From a virus (taxonomy: Duplodnaviria; Heunggongvirae; Uroviricota; Caudoviricetes), in the IMG/VR virus record IMGVR_UViG_2917855067_000004: a DNA stretch of 29,767 bases. One strand, given 5' to 3'. Below are positions 7,150 through 29,113 of this stretch, piece after piece. The position numbers were made by a program, and so were the translations under genes. Under the pieces are notes generated by a model. It worked only from the letters and a program-made list of their open reading frames with translations, was not told where the DNA came from and ran no database searches. Numbering within the stretch: position 1 is the first letter of the stretch; each line of letters opens with the position of its first letter.

Positions 7150-7572
7150 TTACTCCGGTTTAACCGGCCACTCGATATCCGGTGCCGTGGAAGTGTCGAC
7201 TGCGTTCAGCGCCTGAATGTATTTCATCCACGCAATGAGGCTTGCTTTGTCAGCATCGCTGATGATGCCGAGCTGCAGCTCAGTCTGCCACAGGCTTATG
7301 TGCTCTTTTGCAGAAAACAATAATTCGCTGCGCTTTGCTTCGACCTGTGCAATCAGTTGCGCTTCTGTAAGCGGAGGAATATCTATCCAGCACGGATAAC
7401 CTTTTTTATCATTACTTCTAATTTTCCCATCAGGAGGCACCCCACTGAACACCTCAAAAACCCCCTCATCAACGTCAACGCCACTTTCCGGCCAGACATC
7501 TTCTTTCAAATAATCATCTTTCAATGTCCACGGATAAAAAGCATTTGTTGCTGCGCTATATCTGTATTTCAT
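7150..7572 (-). CDS. G: Tail fibre assembly protein G
   Basis: ORF downstream of H; start placed at ATG 7570-7572 (MKYRYSAATNAFYPW...), 2 nt after the H stop and with a GGGG Shine-Dalgarno; the track's longer 7629 start overlaps H. Confidence 0.7.
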   Translation of the reverse strand: MKYRYSAATNAFYPWTLKDDYLKEDVWPESGVDVDEGVFEVFSGVPPDGKIRSNDKKGYPCWIDIPPLTEAQLIAQVEAKRSELLFSAKEHISLWQTELQLGIISDADKASLIAWMKYIQALNAVDTSTAPDIEWPVKPE

Positions 7573-7574
7573 CG

Positions 7575-8537
7575 TCAATACCCCACTGCAATATACGAGA
7601 GGTTGAATCCTCCGGCACCACTCATCCACGCCTGAAACCCTGTTCGGGTTTGTGAGGCGGTAACCACACCATAAGACATAGCTGTACTCGGTACCGCGCC
7701 ACCGGTAGTAACATCTGACCAGGTTAGGTTAACCACAGCACCTGAAGCAAACGCTACCGGGAATGTTGCACTGGATAAATTCGACCCAATTCCAAATCCA
7801 AGTGAGCCTTTTTGAATAATTAACCCGCCAACAGTTTTAACCCAGTTAGCCCCATAACTCTGATAGCTCATGTCAGGAATTTGCCCCTGACCAACACCAA
7901 CATTTTTCGTTGAGGCCGTTCCTAAACCGAGGTTTTTAATGACTTCTGTCGTTAATCCTGCGTCGGCTATTTCTTTAAGTGCATTTGCGATGAGCAAATA
8001 CTGCTTATGCGGATTCGCGGTAGCAACGTGGTTTTTCATCAGGTCATCAGCATAGGCTTTCACCTCGATAATCTTGTCGTCAACATACTGACGCGTTGCC
8101 AGCACGACCGACGGGTCGATTTTCAGGGTGATGGCCGATGTGCTCGACACAATCAGAATCATGCGAATGGTCTGTGTGCGGCCGCTTCCCTCCTGCAATT
8201 GCGGCTTGTAGGTCTCCGGGCAGTTCGCCACGGCAATCAGAATGCCGTCGTCATCGTAGAGACCAATCTCGCGGATCCAGAAACCGCCCTCATTCTCGGG
8301 AATAATCTGTTCCGCGATAATCTGGTTGGTATTGGCCGGGTCAACGGTCAGCAGGTTCAGTGGCGCGATGCGCTTTTGGTTAATGAGCTTCGTCTGCGCC
8401 GGGTCAGGGGTCGGCAGCGTACCATTCGCATCACCGACGGCCATCTGCGTCAGGTTGAGTCTGGTACCGAGAGCCGCCGCGTTCGCCAGCCGCGCCGCGC
8501 CCTGATTGGTCAGAATGGCAAAATATTTTGCGGTCAT
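7575..8537 (-). CDS. H: Tail fibre protein H (short form, 320 aa)
   Basis: N-terminal ~150 aa (…MAVGDANGTLPTPDPAQTKLINQ…GGFWIREIGLYDDDGILIAVANCPETYKPQLQEGSGRTQTIRMILIVS…) resembles the conserved P2 gpH N-domain; the C-terminal part differs. Confidence 0.8.
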   Translation of the reverse strand: MTAKYFAILTNQGAARLANAAALGTRLNLTQMAVGDANGTLPTPDPAQTKLINQKRIAPLNLLTVDPANTNQIIAEQIIPENEGGFWIREIGLYDDDGILIAVANCPETYKPQLQEGSGRTQTIRMILIVSSTSAITLKIDPSVVLATRQYVDDKIIEVKAYADDLMKNHVATANPHKQYLLIANALKEIADAGLTTEVIKNLGLGTASTKNVGVGQGQIPDMSYQSYGANWVKTVGGLIIQKGSLGFGIGSNLSSATFPVAFASGAVVNLTWSDVTTGGAVPSTAMSYGVVTASQTRTGFQAWMSGAGGFNLSYIAVGY

Positions 8538-18802: not shown

Positions 18803-19849
18803 ATGGGTAAACAAAAATCCCGCAAAGTCGCTGCGCAGAAGGCCAGCAAGCCACAACAACTGACCGCCAGCGCACCGCCAAAAACAACTGCTTTTACCTT
18901 CGGCGAGCCGGTGCCGGTGCTCGATAAGCGCGATATTCTGGATTACGTCGAGTGCATCAGTAACGGCAAATGGTACGAGCCGCCGGTCAGCTTCTCCGGG
19001 CTGGCAAAGAGTCTGCGCTCTGCTGTACATCACAGCTCGCCGATTTACGTTAAGCGCAACGTGCTCGCGAGCACCTACATCCCGCACCCACTGCTGTCCC
19101 GTCAGGATTTCAGCCGCTTTGCGCTCGACTATCTCGTATTTGGCAACGCCTTTCTTGAGCAGCGCCACAGCGTTACCGGTCAGTTAATCAAACTGCTGGC
19201 CTCACCGGCCAAATACACCCGGCGCGGGATCGACGATTCGATTTTCTGGTTTGTGGAAAACTTCACTCTGCCGCATGAGTTCGCGCCTGATACCGTATTT
19301 CACCTGCTGGAGCCCGACATTAACCAGGAGATTTACGGTCTGCCCGAATATCTCAGCGCGCTTAATTCCGCCTGGCTGAATGAATCCGCGACGCTGTTCC
19401 GTCGCAAGTATTATCAGAACGGCGCGCACGCGGGTTACATCATGTATGTGACCGACCCGGCGCAGAGCGCGACCGACGTCGAATCGCTGCGCGAGGCGAT
19501 GCGCAACTCAAAAGGGCTCGGCAACTTTAAGAACCTGTTTTTCTACGCACCCGGCGGAAAACCGGACGGCATCAAAATCGTGCCGCTGAGCGAGGTCGCC
19601 ACAAAGGATGACTTTTTCAACATTAAAAAAGCCAGCGCTGCCGACCTGATGGACGCGCACCGCGTGCCGTTCCAGCTCATGGGCGGCAAGCCCGAGAATA
19701 TCGGTTCACTCGGTGACGTTGAGAAGGTGGCAAAGGTATTTGTGCGTAACGAGCTGTCACCCCTGCAGGACAGGTTCAGGGAGGTAAACGACTGGCTCGG
19801 CATGGAGGTCATCAGGTTCAAAGAGTACACCCTCGACAACCCGGAATAA
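18803..19849 (+). CDS. Q: Portal protein Q
   Basis: 348 aa immediately after P and adjacent to cos, as in P2. Confidence 0.9.
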   Translation: MGKQKSRKVAAQKASKPQQLTASAPPKTTAFTFGEPVPVLDKRDILDYVECISNGKWYEPPVSFSGLAKSLRSAVHHSSPIYVKRNVLASTYIPHPLLSRQDFSRFALDYLVFGNAFLEQRHSVTGQLIKLLASPAKYTRRGIDDSIFWFVENFTLPHEFAPDTVFHLLEPDINQEIYGLPEYLSALNSAWLNESATLFRRKYYQNGAHAGYIMYVTDPAQSATDVESLREAMRNSKGLGNFKNLFFYAPGGKPDGIKIVPLSEVATKDDFFNIKKASAADLMDAHRVPFQLMGGKPENIGSLGDVEKVAKVFVRNELSPLQDRFREVNDWLGMEVIRFKEYTLDNPE

Positions 19850-19857
19850 TCCCCCTC

Positions 19858-19881
19858 AAGCCGCCAGCATGGCGGCTTTTT
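19858..19881 (+). terminator. Intrinsic terminator after Q
   Basis: Hairpin AAGCCGCC-AGCAT-GGCGGCTT followed by TTTTT. Confidence 0.6.
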
Positions 19882-20025
19882 CATACCCCGCCACCATCAC
19901 GCCTCAGACGCGCCACGCGCGCACGACCACACAAGACCACCTACGAACCGACAGCATCCACTACAGCGCCATCACGACGCGCTCAGACGATAATTTTTAT
20001 TATTACGCACCACCGCTGGCGCGCA

Positions 20026-20044
20026 ATGCTTTCCCCGCCACGCC
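20026..20044. other. cos site (19-nt cohesive-end sequence of P2/186 type)
   Basis: The reverse complement reads GGCGTGGCGGGGAAAGCAT, which matches the 186 cohesive end as I remember it (P2 differs at 2 positions); it sits downstream of Q as expected. Confidence 0.75.
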
Positions 20045-20204
20045 TGCCCGCTTTATAGGGCGGTTTTAATGCAGTTGCATGATCACTCTGGATCCGCGCC
20101 AGCTCAGGCGGCGCACGGCCAGAACGGGCCCCCCCGGCGCATGCAAAACCATGCACCTGTTGCATGCACGGCTAAAAAACAGGGAAATCGCGTAAAAATG
20201 GCAT

Positions 20205-20247
20205 AAAAAAAAACCGGCATTCGCGGTGCCGGTTTCGGTCTGATTTT
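20205..20247. terminator. Bidirectional intrinsic terminator (strongest for the minus strand)
   Basis: A9 run, hairpin CCGGCA-TTCGCGG-TGCCGG, then a T-rich run; on the minus strand the hairpin is followed by U9. Confidence 0.6.
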
Positions 20248-20254
20248 GTCGCGA

Positions 20255-20356
20255 TTACTGGCCGCGCAATGCGCTGATAACACTATTGAGGCACATGCTG
20301 GCAACAATCAGCAGAAAAATTGTCGTCCACGGATTTTCATAAACGAGAGATAACAT
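20255..20356 (-). CDS. Hypothetical 33-aa single-TM peptide (MLSLVYENPWTTIFLLIVASMCLNSVISALRGQ)
   Basis: ATG at 20354-20356 with AAAGGA upstream; ~20-residue hydrophobic core; stop TAA at 20255-20257, directly followed by the strong terminator. Below the ORF-track length cutoff; not matched to a known family. Confidence 0.4.
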   Translation of the reverse strand: MLSLVYENPWTTIFLLIVASMCLNSVISALRGQ

Positions 20357-20372
20357 ATTGATATAGATCCTT

Positions 20373-20564
20373 TTATTTGTGCATTCTGATGTGGTTTAAC
20401 AGGTGTTTGATAATGGTCGTAAGCTCATCTTTACTGGCGTGCTCTACCATTTTTGCGGTGTAGCTTTCCACCTCGCGAGAGCTCAGGTCGTTATTTAAAG
20501 CCATTACAGTCAGCTTTTTTGCCCAATCGGCAAATGGGTCTATCGATGAAAGGGAATTATGCAT
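20373..20564 (-). CDS. Hypothetical 63-aa protein (MHNSLSSIDPFADWAKKLTVMALNNDLSSREVESYTAKMVEHASKDELTTIIKHLLNHIRMHK)
   Basis: Internal ATG at 20562-20564 with a GAGG Shine-Dalgarno 9 nt upstream; 16 nt upstream of the 33-aa peptide gene; AT-rich. The 91-aa track form starts at a weaker site. Confidence 0.5.
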   Translation of the reverse strand: MHNSLSSIDPFADWAKKLTVMALNNDLSSREVESYTAKMVEHASKDELTTIIKHLLNHIRMHK

Positions 20565-20995
20565 GTCCAAAAACCTCGAATTATTTAACCAGCAGACGGC
20601 GGAAATCTTTGCGGTGTTATGGGATAACTTCCCGGTGCCACAGGTCATTACCTACGAAAAATTTAAACGCCGCGCTACCTGATGACTACTTTGACCAACT
20701 TAACTCACCGGAAATGAAAGCACTGAATCAGTTGCGCAGTGTGGTTGAGGGTACATTCACTTTTCTCAGTGAAAACGGCTACATCCAGTACGGAACAGAC
20801 CACCAGACCTATTTTTATGATGTGCGCCTGACCGAGAAAGCACTCGCCGTGCTTAACAAAAAGCCCGAGGCGCTCGGCGGTAATGAAACAATGGGCGATA
20901 AGATTATCAGTGCAGTGAAAGACGGGACGCCGGGAGTGATTGCCGGTGCGGTGACAAACCTGCTTACCCTCGGTGTCAATCTGGTAACCAGTTAA
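20563..20995 (+). pseudogene. Frame-disrupted hypothetical gene: 39-aa frame-1 ORF (20563-20682) plus ~105-aa continuation in another frame to 20995
   Basis: ATG 20563 with AAGGGA 7 nt upstream gives MSKNLELFNQQTAEIFAVLWDNFPVPQVITYEKFKRRAT then tandem TGATGA; protein-like sequence continues one base out of frame (LPDDYFDQLNSPEMKALNQ...GVIAGAVTNLLTLGVNLVTS) to a TAA at 20993-20995. Confidence 0.4.
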
Positions 20996-20996
20996 C

Positions 20997-21052
20997 GCCT
21001 CGCGGGGCGTCGTTGTTCAACCCCGTCAGCACTGAAAGCGAGTTTCAGCGCT
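20997..21052. repeat. Structured repeat element R1 (GC stem-loop plus 10-bp hairpin with GCGAG loop)
   Basis: GCCTCGCGGGGCGTCGTTGTTCAACCCCGTC then AGCACTGAAA-GCGAG-TTTCAGCGCT; homologous to R2 about 405 bp away. Confidence 0.5.
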
Positions 21053-21062
21053 GAGACGTTTG

Positions 21063-21272
21063 CTATCGTCGACGTGGTGGAGGTGCGTATTTTGTCGGTC
21101 TGCTGATGCTATCCAGCTTGCCGCAATTATCCCTGACTATTTCGGCACACCCGACCAGCTCGGTGGGTGTCAAATTCTCATTGACCATTATCTGCTGCAG
21201 GCGATGAACGATAGCCATTAACTTAATATTTCTGGTCTGGTGCTGCGGTATTTCACCTGGTAGTCGATGCAT
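21063..21272 (-). CDS. Hypothetical 69-aa protein
   Basis: ATG at 21270-21272 with a GAGGG Shine-Dalgarno 7 nt upstream; lies between R2 and R1; no family recognised. Confidence 0.45.
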   Translation of the reverse strand: MHRLPGEIPQHQTRNIKLMAIVHRLQQIMVNENLTPTELVGCAEIVRDNCGKLDSISRPTKYAPPPRRR

Positions 21273-21401
21273 ATTATCACCCTCAATGAATTTTAATCAG
21301 TGCCGTCAAAACGCCACTATAAAACCCTCTCAGGTCATGCCTCATTCATCACTGGCGTGTCATCAATAGCACATTGAGAAATTTTGAAAGGCAGGACTAA
21401 A

Positions 21402-21455
21402 GCCTCGTGGGCTCGTTACTCAACCCCGTCGACGCAAAAAGCTAGTTTTTGCGCC
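21402..21455. repeat. Structured repeat element R2 (homologue of R1; hairpin with GCTAG loop)
   Basis: GCCTCGTGGGCTCGTTACTCAACCCCGTC then GACGCAAAAA-GCTAG-TTTTTGCGCC; stem differs from R1 by base changes that preserve pairing. Confidence 0.5.
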
Positions 21456-21471
21456 AACACGGTTATCATGT

Positions 21472-21702
21472 TTAACGCCAGCTATCGTCTTCCCAAATCT
21501 CTTGTAATATGCCGCTTAATGTTTCTTTGTCTGCTTCTTTATCGAATCCGATAACCTCTACACCAGTCATTGACCCTTTCTTGACGTTAACTTTTATTGC
21601 AGGAAAAACGCATTGTACTCGATGTGTTATTTCATTCTGAAAAGCATCAATGATCTGTTGCCCTAATTTTTGTTCTTTATCCAACGTGATATTGATTCTC
21701 AT
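21472..21702 (-). CDS. DinI-family protein (likely the C-terminal part of a Tum-like SOS-inducible antirepressor)
   Basis: 76 aa MRINITLDKEQKLGQQIIDAFQNEITHRVQCVFPAIKVNVKKGSMTGVEVIGFDKEADKETLSGILQEIWEDDSWR resembles E. coli DinI (MRIEVTIAK...ILQETWE) from memory. Confidence 0.8.
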   Translation of the reverse strand: MRINITLDKEQKLGQQIIDAFQNEITHRVQCVFPAIKVNVKKGSMTGVEVIGFDKEADKETLSGILQEIWEDDSWR

Positions 21703-21705
21703 AAT

Positions 21706-21888
21706 CTAATCAGCCTTATAAAAATTATCATCTTCGGTTTCGTTATTCTCGCTGTTTGCTAGGTCTGCAATGAGAGTGAGCGCGAGCTTTAAGTCTGATG
21801 GCTTGCAGTTTGCAATCAGAGATACCTCGGCAATAAATTGCACACAAGCCCACTTTTGCTGCGTTCGGCTGAAATGTTCGTCAACCAT
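21706..21888 (-). CDS. Hypothetical 60-aa protein, first gene of the LexA-box operon (possible Tum N-terminal part)
   Basis: ATG at 21886-21888 with AGGAGG 6 nt upstream; ends at a TAG that is in frame with, and one codon before, the DinI-like ATG. Confidence 0.55.
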   Translation of the reverse strand: MVDEHFSRTQQKWACVQFIAEVSLIANCKPSDLKLALTLIADLANSENNETEDDNFYKAD

Positions 21889-21907
21889 GGAATCCCTCCT
21901 ACAGGGT

Positions 21908-21927
21908 TACTGTATGTTTATACAGTA
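21908..21927. promoter_or_regulatory. LexA operator (SOS box) upstream of the orf60/DinI-like operon
   Basis: TACTGTATGTTTATACAGTA: CTGT-N8-ACAG with palindromic flanks, about 20 nt upstream of the orf60 ribosome-binding site. Confidence 0.8.
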
Positions 21928-22001
21928 GCACGTATTGGTAAAAGATGGGAAGAAAAAAAACGAATAGGGCGATTGTCGTATGTACATGATATGGATATAA
22001 A

Positions 22002-24296
22002 TTACTCTGATATTGGTTTTGATGCTTCAGCTATCGCAGCAACACGATTAAGGATTTTTCTGGCTTTAGCCTCATGCGATGGTGCTGTGGAAAATATTTC
22101 TCCTTTGGCCGTTCCGCGTAGCCATTTACCATCAAAACAACTTTTACCACCGGCCATCAGGTGCAGAGCTTCGCCCCGGCTGATATTAATGCCGGTTGTC
22201 AAATGTATCTCTTCGATAGTTTTCGCTATAGCTGCGTTTTGCTCATCCGTTCCGTGGACGAATTTTCGCCGTGCTGCTGGCTTTTGCTTCCTGAGTCGGT
22301 TGGTCAACTCTCGTCTTTCACGCCGACTCAGTGGTTTTGTTAAATCCAGTATCGGTGGATCGCTTTCGCTTCCCGTACAGTTATTGACAGAACTCCGAGG
22401 GACGGCTTTGCCGTCCTGAAGGTCAACGGCCAAATCAACAGCATGCTTCGGAACAATCTTCCACTGAGTGAGTCGGGTTAATATCGGGCTCCCTGCACCT
22501 ATGGAGGAATCGTAGACCCCCTTAATACATACCGTTTCCTCACCGTACTGATTAAGCTCGGTACGCGGTTCATACAGTGTGCGCACCTGTAAATCATCGC
22601 GACGGACAAACGGTCCACCCTGCGCATTAACATACCCAGCCCAGTCACCAGCGTCGGCGGCATCATGGACGGCGGCAAACTCAACGCTCAGTCCGTGCGC
22701 GGTTTCGGTATCAGCGAGGCGACGCAACTCACGGTAAACCGTCACCGGCGCACCACCGATAAACTGAAACTGACGGATGTGCCAGCGCGAAGCCCATGCT
22801 GAAACGGCGGGGGCTGTCTCTTTCAGCAGTTCACCACTTTCATCATCGGTTTCACCATCGAGAGCATAACCGTCGATATTTTTTGAGATGTATTTAGCAA
22901 CATAGCCGGTTGCGCTGCCTTTCTCCGGGTCAATGGACTCGGCGTGGAAACGTGCTTTTTTGGATTTATCGCTTTTCAGTTCGTGGCGGTCTTCTTTCCA
23001 TGCGTATTTACGGACGATGGAGCGAACATATTCAACATCTTCCGGCAGCATGAACATCAGCATGTGCCAGTGTGGAGTGCCGTCGTGATGGGGCTCGGCG
23101 ACACGAATACCGAAAATACGGACATCTTCCCGATGTAGTTTGGCACGGATGCGCGCCCAGATACCGGTTAGATAGTTTTGCGTGTCAGCCGGGCTGGCAC
23201 CGCTCCATTTGCTGTTACGGTAACCGGCTTTAGTTGTGGCGTGATATTTTGACGGCGCGGTTAGAGTGTAAAACTCACCGACATAACCGAGCTCATTACA
23301 GATGTTTTCAAACCCACGAATGCGGGTCATGAGCTCACAGCGGCGAATCGCAGGGTTAGCAACTGAGCCATCATATTTTTCAATTAGGCTGATACGGTTG
23401 CCGTCTTCGTCTTCGAGATCCAGACCTTTGAGAAATTCACGAGTTCGGCGCTTTTGTTCACGCCAGTCAGTCACGCAGTTTTTACTCGCATAGGTGTTTT
23501 TTTTCTTGCTGACGTTGCCGACTGCAATTTGCAGGTGTTCGCGCCATGTAGCTGCAACCCGGCGCAAACGACCACGCCACCACCCATCGTTAAACATCTT
23601 GGCGATAGCCGGTGCGATTTCATCCGCTCCGACATATTTTTTTGCAACCCGATCCCAATGGGGTGGGATAACGTTGAACTGGAGGGAAATAAAGCCAGCA
23701 CGATTATACCAAGTGTACAGCGTTTTAAGCTCGCCGAATCCGTGGTCATTAATGCTGGCAAGTTCACCACGAATGAAATTAGCAATATCGGCGGCCAACA
23801 GGTCAACATCAGCGCGCGACATATCCGGGAGGCGGTTATATCGGGCGACCATATTAACCATGCGTGACGCCAGATATTGCATAAGCTGGGTATCAAAATG
23901 ACTTCCAAAAACAGAGGTTGATACCTTGCTGTTGATACCCGCGCATTCGTATTTTTTTGCGACCAATTCAAGACGCGGCAATGCCTTTTTGCAGAAGCTG
24001 ATCAAAAAGGCATTGGCTCGTTGAATGCCCTGATTTTGCTCCAGCACTGCCGCAGTGCGATAAACATCTAACCGCACGCAGTCGGGCTGGAGAGAAAGCA
24101 CCTTTTTCGCATGCAGCAAAGCCGCGAACATACGGTCGCGGCGATGCTGTTGCTCGTAAGTAAGGTATGGGCTGGCTATAGCCGACCGTGGAGCATTCCA
24201 CGGATAAGCAAAAGTAATATCTAATGCCCCTCCGTCATGTATCATCTGTCGACTTTCTTTTTGATTCCATAACATTGGTCGTGTAGCCTCCCACAA
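22002..24296 (-). CDS. A: Replication initiation protein A (rolling-circle nickase)
   Basis: 764 aa; size and position match P2 gpA; contains a His-hydrophobic-His motif (PHWHMLMF) and a YVAKY motif consistent with rolling-circle Rep proteins. Confidence 0.93.
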   Translation of the reverse strand: MWEATRPMLWNQKESRQMIHDGGALDITFAYPWNAPRSAIASPYLTYEQQHRRDRMFAALLHAKKVLSLQPDCVRLDVYRTAAVLEQNQGIQRANAFLISFCKKALPRLELVAKKYECAGINSKVSTSVFGSHFDTQLMQYLASRMVNMVARYNRLPDMSRADVDLLAADIANFIRGELASINDHGFGELKTLYTWYNRAGFISLQFNVIPPHWDRVAKKYVGADEIAPAIAKMFNDGWWRGRLRRVAATWREHLQIAVGNVSKKKNTYASKNCVTDWREQKRRTREFLKGLDLEDEDGNRISLIEKYDGSVANPAIRRCELMTRIRGFENICNELGYVGEFYTLTAPSKYHATTKAGYRNSKWSGASPADTQNYLTGIWARIRAKLHREDVRIFGIRVAEPHHDGTPHWHMLMFMLPEDVEYVRSIVRKYAWKEDRHELKSDKSKKARFHAESIDPEKGSATGYVAKYISKNIDGYALDGETDDESGELLKETAPAVSAWASRWHIRQFQFIGGAPVTVYRELRRLADTETAHGLSVEFAAVHDAADAGDWAGYVNAQGGPFVRRDDLQVRTLYEPRTELNQYGEETVCIKGVYDSSIGAGSPILTRLTQWKIVPKHAVDLAVDLQDGKAVPRSSVNNCTGSESDPPILDLTKPLSRRERRELTNRLRKQKPAARRKFVHGTDEQNAAIAKTIEEIHLTTGINISRGEALHLMAGGKSCFDGKWLRGTAKGEIFSTAPSHEAKARKILNRVAAIAEASKPISE

Positions 24297-26844: not shown

Positions 26845-27690
26845 ATGTCTAAAAATGATGTCAATGCGTCTGCCGCTTTAGAGCGAGTCCTTTCTGCATA
26901 CGGTTTTAAGCAGCAAAAAGAACTAGCTGAAAGGCTTGGTATTCATGCGAACAACGTAAGTAGTTGGCTTGCAAGAAACGTGATCCCAAGCAACGTTTTC
27001 GTTGAGTGCGCTCTTGATACAGGGGCTGACCTGCGATGGCTTGTTAATGGTGAACTTGCAAATACAAAATATGACGAGAGGCAAGTAAATCTCAAAGGTA
27101 AGCAACTCTATGATGAAATCATGGCTAATGGAGGAAGGGCGGTTCTGCGTCGTATTCTCGATGCGTATGGTTTTACTATGCAAAAAGAGTTGGGAGATTT
27201 ATTAGGCATATCCTCTGGTACTATAAGCACTTGGGTCAGACGCGATTTTTTCCCTGGTGATGTGGTTGTAACCTGCGCCCTCGATACAGGCGTATCGTTA
27301 GAATGGTTATCTACGGGAAAAGGCCAGATGCGTAACAGCAAGGATGGTGAGTCAGCTAATTCTTTAACGATTAGAAAATGCCGCCTTGAGGCAGGTGAAC
27401 TCAAGGATATCGGGCGTTGGACTCCTGATGTCTCTATGGTTCCGGCAAACACTGATGATTTAGTCTTTATTGATGGCGTGAGTGCATCTTGGCTTGTTGA
27501 TTGTTCTAACTCAAAGATAGGAAATGGTCGTTGGCTTATTGGTATTGATGGTGCGCTCGATATTTTTGACGTAATCAGATTGCCCGGAGGAAAGGTCAGG
27601 CTATCAAATAAGTCTGTTGAGTTTGAATGTAATCTTTCTGATATCACACCATCAGGTGCCGTTTTCTTTACTTTGGAAAAGCATGTTTAA
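26845..27690 (+). CDS. cI: CI immunity repressor (186 type) with tandemly duplicated N-terminal DNA-binding domain
   Basis: Start placed at ATG 26845 (MSKNDV...); two homologous ~65-aa segments (...LSAYGFKQQKELAERLGI...CALDTGADLRWLVNGE and ...LDAYGFTMQKELGDLLGI...CALDTGVSLEWLSTGKG) followed by a ~125-aa C-terminal domain. Confidence 0.75.
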   Translation: MSKNDVNASAALERVLSAYGFKQQKELAERLGIHANNVSSWLARNVIPSNVFVECALDTGADLRWLVNGELANTKYDERQVNLKGKQLYDEIMANGGRAVLRRILDAYGFTMQKELGDLLGISSGTISTWVRRDFFPGDVVVTCALDTGVSLEWLSTGKGQMRNSKDGESANSLTIRKCRLEAGELKDIGRWTPDVSMVPANTDDLVFIDGVSASWLVDCSNSKIGNGRWLIGIDGALDIFDVIRLPGGKVRLSNKSVEFECNLSDITPSGAVFFTLEKHV

Positions 27691-27699
27691 GGGGCAGTA

Positions 27700-27963
27700 A
27701 TGAAAAAGTTTTTATTTGGAATGGTCTGTATTGCACTTTCTTCCTCAACATTTGCTGCTGAAAAGTTCAAAGAGATTGATAGTAAATCTTTTGGTGGTAA
27801 ATGGCCGCTAACCTTTGAGCATGCAAAGGTATCTTGTGTAAATCGTCACTACGTTTTTGTTTATGATATTGATACTGATGAACGATATCCCCTAAGCGGT
27901 ATGGCTAAAAAACGCCGTCAAATCAGGAAAAATGGAAGGGCGAGATTTAAAAGAAGTGCTTAA
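27700..27963 (+). CDS. Small secreted protein (signal peptide; tentative YebY/DUF2511-like), between cI and int
   Basis: AAGGGG Shine-Dalgarno 5 nt before the ATG; MKKFLFGMVCIALSSSTFA signal peptide; mature part ...GGKWPLTFEHAKVSCVNRHYVFVYDIDTDERYPLSGMA... and a basic tail; AT-rich. Confidence 0.6.
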   Translation: MKKFLFGMVCIALSSSTFAAEKFKEIDSKSFGGKWPLTFEHAKVSCVNRHYVFVYDIDTDERYPLSGMAKKRRQIRKNGRARFKRSA

Positions 27964-28063
27964 AAAAAGACCCTGACGATCCATTAGAAAGCGCTGATAT
28001 AGGCCCGGTTTTCAGTGAAGCTATAGCGCTGTGTGAATAATATTTTTTTGTCTCGGTGTAGCT

Positions 28064-29113
28064 ATGACAGTAAGTAAGCAAAAAAATGGTAAATGGTTAT
28101 GCGAGCTTTATCCAAATGGCCGGGAAGGACGGCGTATACGTCGTCAATTTAATACCAAAGGTGAGGCCGAGGCATTCGAATCATTTACCAAAAGCGAGAG
28201 TGAATATAAGCCGTGGCTCGGCAAGAAAGAAGACCGCCGACGCTTAAGTGAGATTATCCAGCTTTGGAACAATTTGCACGGTCAGGCGTTAGTCGCCAGT
28301 AAGTCGCGGTTGGCAAAGCTTCAAATCGTGTGTAATGGTTTAGGTGACCCTATCGCATCCCGCCTTACTGCTAAAGATTGGGCTCACTATCGTGATAAAC
28401 GGCTTCGTGGTGAAATAGATAATGGATATCACAAAGACCCTGCAAAATGGATCGCCAAACCGATAACCGTCAACCGTGAGCAGCAGTATTTAGAAGCTGT
28501 TTTCAATGAGCTAAAGCGGCTAGGGGAATGGACCCAACCTAACCCGCTTGATGGTATTCGTATATTTAAAGAAGCTGAGAAGGAAATGTCATGGCTGACG
28601 CTTGAACAAATCCCGCAGCTTTTATCGGCATGTCATCAGTATGGACATGAAGACCTTACGCAGATTGTCGAGGTTTGTTTGGCGACTGGTGCCCGATGGG
28701 GTGAGGCCGAACGAATAACCCGTCCTCAACTTTCGCCCTACAAACTTACTTTCACAAAAACTAAAGGCAAAAAAAATCGCACAGTCCCGATCCCAAAATG
28801 GCTTTACGAAAAGTTATCTACGCGTCAGGGGCGAATGTTTAAGCCTTGCTATCAGGAGTTCAAAAAAATGCTTTTGCTTACTGATATCGAGCTGACTGAA
28901 GGGCAGAAAACGCACGTTTTACGTCACACCTTTGGTGCGCATTTTATGATGAATGGCGGCAATATCCTTGTACTCCAGAAGATACTCGGTCACGCAAATA
29001 TTCGTGAAACAATGAAGTATGCGCACTTTGCTCCTGACCATCTTGAACAAGCTGTCACCTTAAATCCGTTGTCACTGTGTATTGGCGACAACGTGGCGGC
29101 AGAGGTTGCGTAA
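28064..29113 (+). CDS. int: Tyrosine integrase (P2 family)
   Basis: 349 aa; C-terminal catalytic region ...HVLRHTFGAHFMMNGGNILVLQKILGHANIRETMKYAHF (R/H-x-x-R...Y); adjacent to attR. Confidence 0.93.
   Translation: MTVSKQKNGKWLCELYPNGREGRRIRRQFNTKGEAEAFESFTKSESEYKPWLGKKEDRRRLSEIIQLWNNLHGQALVASKSRLAKLQIVCNGLGDPIASRLTAKDWAHYRDKRLRGEIDNGYHKDPAKWIAKPITVNREQQYLEAVFNELKRLGEWTQPNPLDGIRIFKEAEKEMSWLTLEQIPQLLSACHQYGHEDLTQIVEVCLATGARWGEAERITRPQLSPYKLTFTKTKGKKNRTVPIPKWLYEKLSTRQGRMFKPCYQEFKKMLLLTDIELTEGQKTHVLRHTFGAHFMMNGGNILVLQKILGHANIRETMKYAHFAPDHLEQAVTLNPLSLCIGDNVAAEVA

What the first reader, a model, noticed from the sequence alone, without database searches (positions are those of the whole stretch)
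20045..22001. AT-richer accessory island between cos and gene A, made only of small genes and structured repeats
In P2-family phages the cos-to-A interval is a known variable cargo site, carrying old/tin in P2 and defence systems in other prophages. Here it holds no large enzyme gene. It contains, in order: a terminator, a 33-aa TM peptide gene, a 63-aa protein gene, a frame-disrupted gene, repeat R1, a 69-aa ORF, repeat R2, a DinI-like gene, a 60-aa ORF and a LexA box. The island is visibly AT-richer than the structural genes (not computed). Apart from the DinI-like/LexA part, none of it matches a family I recognise.
Basis: partly seen in the sequence, partly recalled or inferred. Interest (0 to 1): 0.7.

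Follow-up and report, generated by a model that had tools for sequence, protein, structure and literature searches.

The report
Phage SOS operon plus cargo slot
This stretch is mostly the ordinary right end of a 186/PSP3-type prophage (its DNA-damage-triggered induction operon plus a small, partly decayed cargo module), but its two "repeats" are copies of a strongly conserved, unannotated hairpin element that sits next to the cargo hotspot across this phage family.

Summary
GC is 0.459 here against 0.563 in the structural genes. The interval is not one accessory island.

- **21465-22001:** the conserved LexA-controlled SOS operon of PSP3/186-type phages (p95-type promoter, tumA, DinI-like tumB).
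- **21063-21272:** a homologue of PSP3 gp37, found widely in P2-like phages.
- **20045-20236:** the conserved cos flank and the t95b terminator.
- **20237-20991:** the only true cargo, about 0.75 kb. It holds a frameshifted 143-aa gene from a large uncharacterised prophage "moron" family, a 63-aa gene and a conserved 33-aa membrane peptide. Function is unknown, with no match to a known defence family.

R1 and R2 are the interesting part. They are two copies of a ~70-nt element found in 186, PSP3, Wphi, and Klebsiella, Yersinia and Erwinia phages. It is always on gene A's strand, between A and Q, and in 129 of 148 copies directly follows tumB, orf37 or orf97.

- Its hairpin shows compensatory changes at 10 of 18 pairs.
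- G·U pairs outnumber A·C mismatches 113 to 14.
- Its 3' tail is nearly invariant.
- It is absent from Rfam and from every phage record's annotation.

Its function is inferred only: probably an mRNA 3' stabiliser or insulator that also serves as a recombination anchor.

The parts
20026..20044 (.). cos cohesive-end core (19 nt, 186 type)
   Evidence: The sequence is ATGCTTTCCCCGCCACGCC. It aligns with the 81EVA prophage cos junction, and the linear 186 record ends immediately before it.
20045..20209 (.). Conserved cos-flanking region (right end of the phage genome). This is backbone, not cargo.
   Evidence: It aligns along its whole length with the last ~190 bp of phage 186 and with the cargo-less prophage 81EVA; the alignment as a whole has 84% mean column identity.
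20210..20236 (-). Terminator homologous to 186 t95b, the end of the SOS operon transcript. It is hairpin-plus-U on the minus strand and weaker on the plus strand.
   Evidence: The terminator scan finds 10 pairs followed by a T run. It aligns to the annotated 186 t95b.
20255..20356 (-). p33: a 33-aa single-TM peptide gene, the most persistently retained part of the cargo module.
   Evidence: ORF. It is intact at exactly 33 codons in 22 of 22 unique DNA variants, and variable sites by codon position are 15/9/23. It is annotated as a CDS in the Klebsiella phage ST147-VIM1phi7.1. It has no family match.
20373..20564 (-). p63: a 63-aa helical protein of unknown function.
   Evidence: It matches phrog_2454 at 9e-38. 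There are 58 homologue clusters, all in Enterobacterales and all named hypothetical. Variable sites by codon position are 4/3/16.
20563..20995 (+). p143 pseudogene, inactivated by a +1 A frameshift at about 20665-20667. It belongs to a large uncharacterised family of prophage moron proteins with a winged-helix-like N-domain and a hydrophobic C-terminal helix.
   Evidence: - Frameshift shown; match to phrog_2266.
- AF2 model with pLDDT 88.8.
- Only weak winged-helix hits in the PDB.
- 773 representative clusters at E<=1e-3.
- Distant members sit as morons in unrelated prophages.
- Its start codon overlaps the p63 start in ATGCAT.
20992..21061 (-). R1: the terminal copy of the conserved hairpin-plus-tail element, directly after the orf37 stop codon and abutting the cargo.
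   Evidence: The covariance model hit is 20984-21069 at 75.5 bits. The minus-strand RNA fold has z=-3.35, against -1.18 for the plus strand. Family-wide covariation is shown.
21063..21272 (-). orf37 homologue (69 aa), equivalent to PSP3 gp37, Wphi orf92 and P2-EC58 ORF85. It is the commonest gene immediately upstream of R.
   Evidence: It matches phrog_11386 at 2e-44. It lies upstream of R in 59 of 148 copies. AF2 predicts a two-helix hairpin with a disordered Pro/Arg tail.
21395..21464 (-). R2: the internal copy of the element, directly after the tumB stop codon. The hairpin is kept and the 3' tail is degenerate.
   Evidence: The covariance model hit is 21389-21473 at 63.7 bits. The minus-strand fold has z=-3.92, against -0.74 for the plus strand. 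Three compensatory pair changes relative to R1 can be read.
21472..21702 (-). tumB: a DinI-like protein.
   Evidence: Pfam DinI 1.4e-18. It is 66% identical to residues 71-146 of 186 Tum. PSP3 annotates the equivalent gene as tumB.
21706..21888 (-). tumA: the predicted SOS-induced antirepressor.
   Evidence: It is 97% identical to PSP3 TumA, which is annotated 'UV induction of prophage'. It matches phrog_1993. There is no BLASTP similarity to the 186 Tum N-terminal half.
21889..21960 (-). p95-type promoter with an overlapping LexA box (21908-21927). By alignment to 186, the -10 is at 21922-27 and the -35 at 21946-51.
   Evidence: It aligns with the annotated 186 p95 promoter and LexA site and with PSP3. 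The box reads CTGT-N8-ACAG.

Best explanation
The interval is the right end of a PSP3/186-type (Eganvirus-like) prophage and has three layers.

**(1) A LexA-repressed SOS operon, read on the minus strand.** It runs promoter plus LexA box -> tumA -> tumB -> R2 -> orf37 -> R1. DNA damage removes LexA. TumA, the antirepressor, then inactivates the CI repressor and induces the prophage, and the DinI-like TumB modulates RecA. The identity of the genes and sites is shown by homology; their activity is inferred from 186 and PSP3.

**(2) A conserved ~70-nt element, R, placed directly after the stop codon of the distal genes of this operon (tumB and orf37 here; orf97 in 186).** It is a long hairpin whose stem sequence drifts while pairing is kept, followed by a nearly invariant tail, GGGGTTGAACAACGAGC-nnn-GCGAGGCGTTAG. 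It works as a single strand with the polarity of the operon mRNA. The structure, strand, position and conservation are shown.

My inferred mechanism is that R is an mRNA 3' element. It would protect or process the 3' end of the core-gene message and insulate it from whatever cargo lies downstream. Because it is the last conserved sequence before the cargo slot, it would also be the left homology anchor for cargo swapping and for gain or loss of 'gene-R' modules.

**(3) A 0.75-kb cargo slot between R1 and the t95b terminator.** It holds a decaying three-gene moron: p143 (here a frameshift pseudogene), p63 and p33. Its function is unknown. It is most likely a lysogenic-conversion or exclusion function, of which the small membrane peptide p33 is the persistently retained part (inferred).
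For: **Operon**
- The promoter and LexA box align with the annotated p95 of 186 and with PSP3.
- tumB matches DinI at 1.4e-18 and is 66% identical to the 186 Tum C-terminal half.
- tumA is 97% identical to PSP3 TumA.
- The window encodes a CI-like repressor, a CII-like protein and an integrase.
- In the 186-like Salmonella prophage BTP5, tum is the most highly expressed prophage transcript (PMC7067206).

**R element**
- The window has two copies and no others.
- Across 50 diverse copies, 92% of hairpin cells are paired, against 38-48% when the partners are slid. Ten of 18 pairs show double changes.
- There are 113 G·U cells against 14 A·C cells, and the sense-strand hairpin is more stable in 49 of 50 copies (mean -25.1 against -16.8 kcal/mol).
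- All 120 copies with gene A on the same locus are on A's strand, and all 86 with both A and Q lie between them.
- The gene ending just upstream is orf37 (59), tumB (41) or orf97 (29).
- The tail is kept in phages whose A and Q proteins are only 31-35% identical to the window's.
- Sequences diverge sharply right after ...GCGTTAG.
- Midge has tumB-R-cargo without orf37, and L026 has orf37-R-orf97-R.

**Cargo**
- The arrangement varies among relatives.
- Decay is nested: p143 is intact, frameshifted or cut to 19 codons, and p63 is lost in some loci, while p33 is kept.
Against: - No experiment or transcript map was available, so R's function is purely inferred.
- 186 annotation places the transcript end at t95b, so R is not itself shown to be a 3' end.
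- The near-invariant tail implies sequence-specific recognition by something I could not identify. A simple stabiliser hairpin would not need it.
- Canonical P2 lacks R altogether and is viable, so any role is dispensable.
- Retrieval of most copies used a 16-base pattern inside the tail. Part of its apparent invariance is therefore ascertainment. Copies found independently by the covariance model or by blastn show occasional single changes.
- TumA has no detectable similarity to the 186 Tum N-terminal half.
- The cargo proteins match no defence or toxin family.
Confidence: 0.7

Rival explanations
1. One reading: the whole cos-to-A interval is one horizontally acquired accessory or defence island made of small genes.
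For: The locus is the known P2-family hotspot. GC is below that of the structural genes. Content varies among relatives.
Against: - Two thirds of the interval is conserved backbone: the SOS operon, orf37, R, t95b and the cos flank. These are shared with 186, PSP3 or Wphi.
- GC equals that of the rest of the early region, and the lowest-GC part is the conserved tum operon.
- There are no PADLOC or Pfam defence hits.
- The largest cargo gene is a pseudogene here.
Confidence: 0.12
2. R is an attC-like folded single-strand recombination site. On this view tumB-R, orf37-R and orf97-R are cassettes captured site-specifically downstream of a fixed promoter, as in an integron.
For: - The stem is structure-conserved and sequence-variable, with strong strand bias.
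- AAC/GTT pairs at the hairpin base do not vary, and GTTGAAC fits GTTRRRY. The GTT half was fixed by the retrieval pattern.
- Same-orientation gene-R units occur in tandem behind one promoter.
- The junctions with flanking DNA are sharp.
Against: - Sequence divergence starts after ...GCGTTAG, 27 nt 3' of the hairpin, not at G|TT.
- The 5' flank does not fit RYYYAAC and does not pair outward.
- No integrase lies next to the array. The only one in the window is the phage Int, about 6 kb away.
- The invariant tail has no attC counterpart.
- Plain homologous recombination through R explains the same patterns.
Confidence: 0.08
3. R is a transcriptional boundary rather than a stabiliser. It would be a non-canonical terminator or pause site for the sense transcript, or a terminator for antisense transcription coming out of the cargo, and would shield the core operon.
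For: - R sits exactly at the boundary between core genes and cargo.
- On the plus strand the hairpin is followed by GTTT-rich sequence, and cargo genes such as p143 end inside R and use its CTAA/TTAA as their stop codon.
- Northern-scale mapping in 186 could not separate R from t95b, which lie about 50 nt apart (my inference).
Against: - On the sense strand there is no U tract after the hairpin (GGGGUUGAACAAC).
- Selection acts on the sense strand. The antisense hairpin carries A·C mismatches and is 8 kcal/mol weaker.
- 186 annotation has p95 transcripts ending at t95b, beyond R.
Confidence: 0.15
4. R is a single-stranded DNA signal used in rolling-circle replication, for example a lagging-strand priming site on the displaced strand or a secondary site for the A protein.
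For: The strand-specific hairpin has the polarity of gene A's coding strand and lies 1-2 kb downstream of ori. A hairpin followed by a conserved single-stranded tail resembles the sites recognised by HUH nucleases (from general knowledge).
Against: - Canonical P2 replicates without R.
- The tail has no similarity to the ori nick region; the best score of 11 is below the shuffle mean of 12.4.
- The abundance of G·U pairs fits RNA better than DNA.
- Internal copies lose the tail and keep the hairpin.
Confidence: 0.04
5. The retained cargo pair p63-p33 is an SOS-linked membrane toxin system. p33 would be a TisB/DinQ-like small toxic peptide expressed by read-through of the SOS operon, and p63 or p143 its modulator.
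For: - p33 is a 33-aa single-TM peptide and is under coding constraint.
- It is the last gene before the operon terminator and has the same orientation as p95.
- 186 orf97, at the equivalent position, blocks 186 infection when expressed (annotation).
- p143 is repeatedly lost while p63 and p33 are kept.
Against: - There is no homology to any toxin family.
- No promoter or antisense RNA was identified.
- The 0.43-kb antisense p143 gene and R1 lie between the operon and p63.
- No data on expression or toxicity were available.
Confidence: 0.15

Closest known systems
SOS operon of coliphage 186 (p95-tum-t95a-orf97-t95b) and its split form in Salmonella phage PSP3 (tumA, tumB, gp37)
   Same: - Same position after gene A.
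- Homologous promoter and LexA box.
- DinI-like module 66% identical to the 186 Tum C-terminal half.
- tumA 97% identical to the PSP3 gene, and the same tumA-tumB-gp37 order.
- Homologous t95b and cos flank.
   Different: - tum is split into two genes, as in PSP3.
- tumB is a different allele from PSP3's (47% identity).
- There is no t95a and no orf97.
- The cargo after gp37 differs: PSP3 has gp38, and this window has p143, p63 and p33.
P2-like gpA-gpQ cos-proximal hotspot of anti-phage systems (Rousset et al. 2022, PMC9122126)
   Same: Same locus. The tumA/DinI/hypothetical arrangements of close relatives appear in their Table S5A. Gene content is highly variable.
   Different: - This window has no recognisable defence system and no large enzyme.
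- These small genes were not among the systems they tested.
- That paper, and the 2026 follow-up preprint, do not mention a conserved hairpin at the hotspot edge.
mRNA 3' stabiliser and processing hairpins (REP/BIME elements, T7 RNase III sites, lambda sib retroregulation)
   Same: A long imperfect hairpin of about 18 bp, rich in G·U pairs, placed right after stop codons inside or at the end of an operon. It is strand-specific.
   Different: R carries a nearly invariant 27-32-nt tail and is confined to one phage family. No processing has been shown. It has no sequence similarity to REP or sib.
Integron attC sites
   Same: A structure-conserved, sequence-variable, strand-biased hairpin with AAC/GTT at its base, following each gene in a same-orientation array.
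   Different: The junction is not at G|TT, there is no RYYYAAC, no adjacent integron integrase, and there is an extra invariant tail.
Prophage 'morons' (independently inserted lysogenic-conversion genes)
   Same: Members of the p143 family sit as small opposite-strand inserts in unrelated prophages: between tail genes, in a lysis/Nin region, and next to ogr.
   Different: The family has no Pfam or NCBIfam model and no known function. The copy in this window is frameshifted.

Membership tests
186/PSP3-type SOS (tum) operon | LexA box overlapping a promoter immediately downstream of replication gene A | tested here: met
   The box at 21908-21927 (CTGT-N8-ACAG) and its flanks align to the annotated p95 promoter and LexA site of 186 and to PSP3.
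186/PSP3-type SOS (tum) operon | DinI-like module (Tum C-terminal half, or TumB) | tested here: met
   Pfam DinI 1.4e-18. It is 66% identical to residues 71-146 of 186 Tum.
186/PSP3-type SOS (tum) operon | Antirepressor module homologous to PSP3 TumA | tested here: met
   tblastn gives 97% identity over 60 aa to PSP3 tumA.
186/PSP3-type SOS (tum) operon | Sequence similarity of the antirepressor module to the N-terminal half of 186 Tum | tested here: not met
   BLASTP finds no alignment at E<=100. The PSP3 record's note of similarity could not be reproduced at this sensitivity.
186/PSP3-type SOS (tum) operon | Tum inactivates CI and induces the prophage after DNA damage | not testable with these tools
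   This needs induction assays. A CI-like repressor gene is present in the window.
P2-like gpA-gpQ defence hotspot | Located between gene A and portal gene Q, next to cos | tested here: met
   Q ends at 19849, cos is at 20026-20044, and A starts at 24296 and ends at 22002.
P2-like gpA-gpQ defence hotspot | Gene content differs among otherwise related phages | tested here: met
   E66, Midge, 613R3, SW9, PSP3, CX21, 81EVA, the Klebsiella and Yersinia phages all differ here.
P2-like gpA-gpQ defence hotspot | Cargo confers anti-phage activity | not testable with these tools
   There are no significant PADLOC hits; the best is PtuB at E=0.0056, 14 bits. The proteins are absent from the tested set of Rousset 2022.
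Integron attC site | Imperfect hairpin with conserved structure, variable sequence and single-strand (strand-biased) function | tested here: met
   Ten of 18 pairs have double changes, 92% of cells are paired, and G·U outnumbers A·C 113 to 14.
Integron attC site | Paired RYYYAAC / GTTRRRY core sites at the outer end of the stem | tested here: not met
   AAC and GTTGAAC are present. The four bases 5' of AAC are purine- and A-rich (for example GCAA, ATAA) and do not pair with GAAC.
Integron attC site | Cassette junction inside the core site (G|TT) | tested here: not met
   Flanking sequences diverge only after ...GCGTTAG, 27 nt 3' of the hairpin's GTT.
Integron attC site | Adjacent integron integrase (IntI) | tested here: inconclusive
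   No integrase lies next to the array. The only one in the window, at 28064-29113, matches general phage integrase PHROGs. IntI-specific features were not examined.
Intrinsic (Rho-independent) terminator | GC-rich hairpin immediately followed by a U tract on the transcribed strand | tested here: not met
   On the sense strand the R hairpin is followed by GGGGUUGAACAAC. The terminator scan reports t95b but neither R copy.
Any Rfam 15 family | Covariance-model match | tested here: not met
   A cmscan of 19000-23000 at E<=5 gives only chance-level hits, none on R1 or R2.
Small SOS-induced membrane toxins (TisB/DinQ type), considered for p33 | Homology to a known toxin family, or a cognate antisense RNA | tested here: not met
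   p33 has no Pfam, PHROG, NCBIfam or PADLOC hit. An antisense RNA was not tested.

The most novel reading that the evidence does not exclude
R is a previously undescribed, family-wide functional element of enterobacterial P2/186-like phages that acts as a folded single strand. On this reading it defines, and possibly mediates, capture of 'gene-R' cassettes behind the early/SOS promoter and at the edge of the defence hotspot. That would be an integron-like cassette system carried by a phage, using a recombinase not yet identified.
Probability: 0.08. Interest if true: 0.85.

Novelty: new variant of a known kind. Interest (0 to 1): 0.45.

Why it matters
The island itself is ordinary. It shows that much of what looks like accessory DNA at the P2-family hotspot is in fact the conserved SOS induction operon, and that AT-richness is not a guide to cargo here.

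Three things may matter.

- **The R element.** It is a strongly covarying, strand-specific structure with a nearly invariant tail. That tail is kept in phages whose A and Q proteins are only 31-35% identical to this window's. It sits next to one of the best-studied reservoirs of anti-phage systems, is unannotated in every record examined, and is absent from Rfam. If it insulates core-gene expression from arbitrary cargo, or anchors cargo exchange, it would help explain mechanistically why this site can turn over defence systems so fast. It would also give a precise sequence landmark for delimiting hotspot cargo.
- **The p143 family.** With 773 representative clusters and no existing model, it is a widespread uncharacterised prophage moron worth testing.
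- **The p33 peptide.** It is a conserved 33-aa membrane peptide that most genome annotations miss.

Tried and rejected
- **Rfam 15 at E<=5:** nothing on R.
- **R as t95a or t95b of 186:** rejected. 186 has both terminators plus a separate, unannotated R.
- **R tail similar or complementary to another part of the window, or to the ori nick region in gene A:** rejected. The best scores equal the shuffle means.
- **R in P4, phiCTX or canonical P2:** absent with filters off. R is therefore not part of cos and is not essential.
- **Pseudoknot between the hairpin loop CUCGC and the tail GCGAG:** 86-91% of cells pair, but only through one-sided C/U changes, and the pairing is lost in the most divergent copies. 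This is unresolved.
- **orf37 as a TumA paralogue:** no similarity.
- **Homology for p33, p63, orf37, tumA and p143:** Pfam, NCBIfam, PADLOC and PDB sequence searches all failed to name a function.
- **Foldseek of the p143 model against the PDB:** only weak winged-helix hits, E>=0.2.
- **orf37 model:** a bare two-helix hairpin, so I did not run a fold search on it.
- **Small genes next to distant p143 relatives as p63 homologues:** no similarity.
- **Literature:** Nilsson et al. 2004 (MBE 21:1), Odegrip et al. 2006 and Christie & Calendar 2016 are not held. I could not check whether the 'site-specific recombination' proposed for this region in 2004 refers to R. No held paper contains the R core sequence.

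Full report
**1. Observation check**

The window is a P2/186-family prophage read through its joined cos site.

- Portal gene Q ends at 19849 on the plus strand.
- The 19-nt core ATGCTTTCCCCGCCACGCC lies at 20026-20044. It aligns with the cos junction of prophage 81EVA, and the linear 186 record stops exactly before it.
- Replication gene A occupies 22002-24296 on the minus strand.
- GC is 0.459 for 20045-22001, 0.563 for the structural genes and 0.470 for the whole early region. Within the interval the cargo is 0.464 and the tum operon is lowest at 0.389.

Every listed feature is present:

- the terminator at 20210-20236;
- the 33-aa ORF at 20255-20356;
- the 63-aa ORF at 20373-20564;
- a gene at 20563-20995 broken by a single extra A relative to three intact homologues;
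- repeats of 59 nt at 71% identity, 403 nt apart;
- the 69-aa ORF at 21063-21272;
- the DinI-like gene at 21472-21702 (Pfam 1.4e-18);
- the 60-aa ORF at 21706-21888;
- a LexA box at 21908-21927.

**2. What is backbone**

Region 21889-22001 aligns with the annotated p95 promoter and LexA site of phage 186 and with PSP3.

- The 60-aa ORF is 97% identical to PSP3 TumA, which is annotated 'UV induction of prophage'. BLASTP does not link it to the 186 Tum N-terminal half.
- The DinI-like ORF is 66% identical to residues 71-146 of 186 Tum, which makes it TumB.
- The 69-aa ORF is the homologue of PSP3 gp37. tblastn also finds it in Wphi (orf92 region), in P2-EC58 (ORF85 region) and in dozens of viral contigs whose A protein is only 36-45% identical. 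Its AF2 model is a two-helix hairpin with a disordered Pro/Arg-rich tail.
- Region 20045-20236 aligns with the last ~190 bp of 186, including terminator t95b, and with the cargo-less prophage 81EVA.

So only 20237-20991 is cargo.

**3. The cargo**

*p143.* This gene (phrog_2266) is intact in E66, Midge, the Klebsiella phage ST147-VIM1phi7.1 and the closest viral contig, L038. The frameshift is specific to this sequence, or is a sequencing error.

- A close-homologue search finds 72 clusters, all named hypothetical and with no Pfam domain.
- A profile search of 1.84 billion representatives finds 773 hits at E<=1e-3. The 150 best (E<=1e-10) are mostly 125-170 aa and matched over nearly their full length, and 10 sampled members have no Pfam family above threshold.
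- The AF2 model (pLDDT 88.8) has a winged-helix-like N-domain and two C-terminal helices, the last one hydrophobic. Foldseek against the PDB gives only weak winged-helix matches.
- Distant members sit as small inserts in unrelated prophages: next to ogr, in a lambdoid lysis/Nin region, between tail tube and tail chaperone genes, and beside a holin remnant. It behaves as a classic moron.

*p63.* It matches phrog_2454, has 58 clusters, and is helical.

*p33.* It shows coding constraint. All 22 unique DNA variants keep a 33-codon ORF, and variable sites by codon position are 15/9/23.

Across loci the module decays in a nested way. p143 is intact, frameshifted or cut down to 19 codons (SW9, CX21 and others). 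p63 is lost in a few loci. p33 is retained.

No library names a function. None of these proteins is in the tested set of Rousset et al.. Arrangements of close relatives are listed as 'hypothetical + DinI + ...' in their Table S5A.

**4. The repeats**

R1 (20992-21061) and R2 (21395-21464) each lie, on the minus strand, directly after a stop codon: orf37 and tumB respectively. The minus-strand RNA folds far better than shuffles (z=-3.35 and -3.92). The plus strand does not (-1.18 and -0.74).

The same element follows tumB and/or orf37 in E66, 613R3, SW9, PSP3, CX21 and 81EVA. Midge has a single copy after tumB and no orf37. 186 has one copy after orf97, distinct from t95a and t95b and not annotated.

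*Distribution.* A pattern scan of IMG/VR returned 120 loci. blastn finds the element in 67 phage records from Escherichia, Salmonella, Yersinia, Klebsiella and Erwinia; most of the rows listed have no annotated feature under the match and none has an RNA or regulatory feature.

*Anatomy, in the sense of gene A:*
- a stop codon, then 0-8 nt;
- AAC-[about 18-bp hairpin]-GTT;
- a tail, GAACAACGAGC-nnn-GCGAGGCGTTAG;
- abrupt divergence after that.

*Structure, measured on 50 diverse copies:*
- 92% of hairpin cells pair, against 38-48% when the partners are slid.
- Ten of 18 pairs carry double changes, and 0 of 500 shuffles reach the observed score.
- G·U cells outnumber A·C cells 113 to 14.
- The sense hairpin is more stable in 49 of 50 copies.

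Together these indicate a single-stranded, most likely RNA, form with the polarity of the operon transcript.

*Position and copy number.*
- A covariance model finds exactly two copies in the window (75.5 and 63.7 bits) and one or two per related locus.
- All 120 copies with A on the same locus are on A's strand, and all 86 with both A and Q lie between them.
- The gene ending just upstream is orf37 (59), tumB (41), orf97 (29) or another gene (19).
- L026 shows orf37-R-orf97-R-cargo.

*Conservation.*
- The tail persists in phages whose A and Q proteins are only 31-35% identical to the window's, while their hairpin sequences have drifted.
- Internal copies (R2 type) keep the hairpin but have degenerate tails.
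- Canonical P2, P4 and phiCTX lack R.

*Caveat.* Sixteen tail bases were fixed by my retrieval pattern. The GCGAGGCGTTAG block, the AAC, and the copies found by the covariance model or by blastn are independent of it. Those copies show only occasional single changes.

**5. How it most likely works**

*Shown by homology.* This is an SOS operon of the 186/PSP3 type. LexA cleavage opens the promoter, TumA acts as antirepressor on CI, and TumB is a DinI-like RecA modulator. In the 186-like prophage BTP5, tum is the most abundant prophage transcript (PMC7067206).

*Inferred for R.* I propose an mRNA 3' element that blocks 3' exonucleases or is a processing site. It would keep expression of the last core genes independent of whatever cargo is inserted between it and t95b. 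As the last conserved sequence before the slot, it would also be the left homology arm for cargo exchange and for gain or loss of gene-R modules. The right arm would be t95b and the cos flank.

The invariant tail implies recognition by a conserved, probably host, factor that I could not identify. The tail is neither similar nor complementary to the ori or to any other part of the window. Because P2 lacks R, the role is dispensable.

*Rivals.*
- A transcriptional boundary or terminator. There is no U tract on the selected strand.
- An attC-like recombination site. The junction and core-site tests fail.
- An ssDNA replication signal. P2 lacks R, and G·U richness favours RNA.

*Cargo.* Function is unknown. 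p33 as an SOS-linked membrane peptide, and the p143 family as an exclusion or conversion factor, are leads rather than findings.

**6. Comparison with what is known, and novelty**

- The locus is the published P2-family hotspot.
- The operon is a PSP3-type variant of the 186 SOS operon.
- R matches no Rfam family, is not annotated as an RNA or regulatory feature in any phage record listed, and is not mentioned in the two hotspot papers I could read. No held paper contains its core sequence.
- Two older papers on this region could not be read, so prior description cannot be excluded.

**7. Verdict**

The island as described is mostly ordinary and already explained. The R element, and to a lesser degree the p143 family and p33, are real, well-supported and apparently undescribed features whose function remains to be shown.

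Interest is 0.45. Novelty: a new variant of a known kind.

Noticed in passing
L001 (E. coli E66 prophage) 814-2393: A two-gene insert (a P-loop NTPase plus a hypothetical protein) lies between portal gene Q and cos. This is the other side of cos from the usual cargo slot and may be a second cargo site.
   Followed up: no
L009 (Klebsiella phage ST147-VIM1phi7.1) 3619-5047: The same p33/p63/p143 module lies next to cos. Beyond the adjoining R copy, a reverse transcriptase, an XRE regulator and a small gene are inserted between that R and the DinI-like gene. Cargo can therefore also enter upstream of R.
   Followed up: partly
window 20560-20565: The start codons of p63 (minus strand) and p143 (plus strand) overlap by 2 nt within the palindrome ATGCAT. 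No intergenic region is left for the promoters of this divergent pair.
   Followed up: no
L026 1703-2755: A homologue of 186 orf97 (257 aa) is flanked by two R copies 967 nt apart (orf37-R-orf97-R). A 220-aa membrane protein follows as cargo. The arrangement looks cassette-like.
   Followed up: partly
L005 1006-1090, L006 2676-2761, L019 7975-8060, L042 5920-6005: In internal R copies of the PSP3/CX21 type, the tail segment AACGAGCnnnGCGAG is replaced by AACTCGCACCGCGAG. This forms a perfect local 5-bp hairpin (CTCGC/GCGAG) and hints that GCGAG needs a CUCGC partner, either the hairpin loop or this local stem.
   Followed up: partly
window 21612-21641 (minus strand): The only sigma-70-like promoter match in 19800-22100 lies inside tumB (TTCAGA-18-TACAAT), about 340 nt upstream of orf37. 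One match is fewer than the 3.4 expected by chance.
   Followed up: no
window 19869-20069 and 20069-20206 (plus strand): ORFs crossing the cos region are annotated as hypothetical or 'aI' proteins in some relatives (CX21, E66, SW9). They have no family match and overlap conserved cos-flank DNA, so they are probably not genes.
   Followed up: partly
window 7501-8000 and 27501-28000: Local GC dips to 0.45 inside the structural region and to 0.38 next to the repressor and integrase genes. These may be further moron or variable sites.
   Followed up: no
L004 (SW9) 725-860; L006 (CX21) 2215-2350: In these common relatives, p143 is reduced by an internal deletion to its first ~19 codons fused to its last few bases, while p63 and p33 stay intact. 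Their p63 clusters are seen on 1000 or more contigs.
   Followed up: partly
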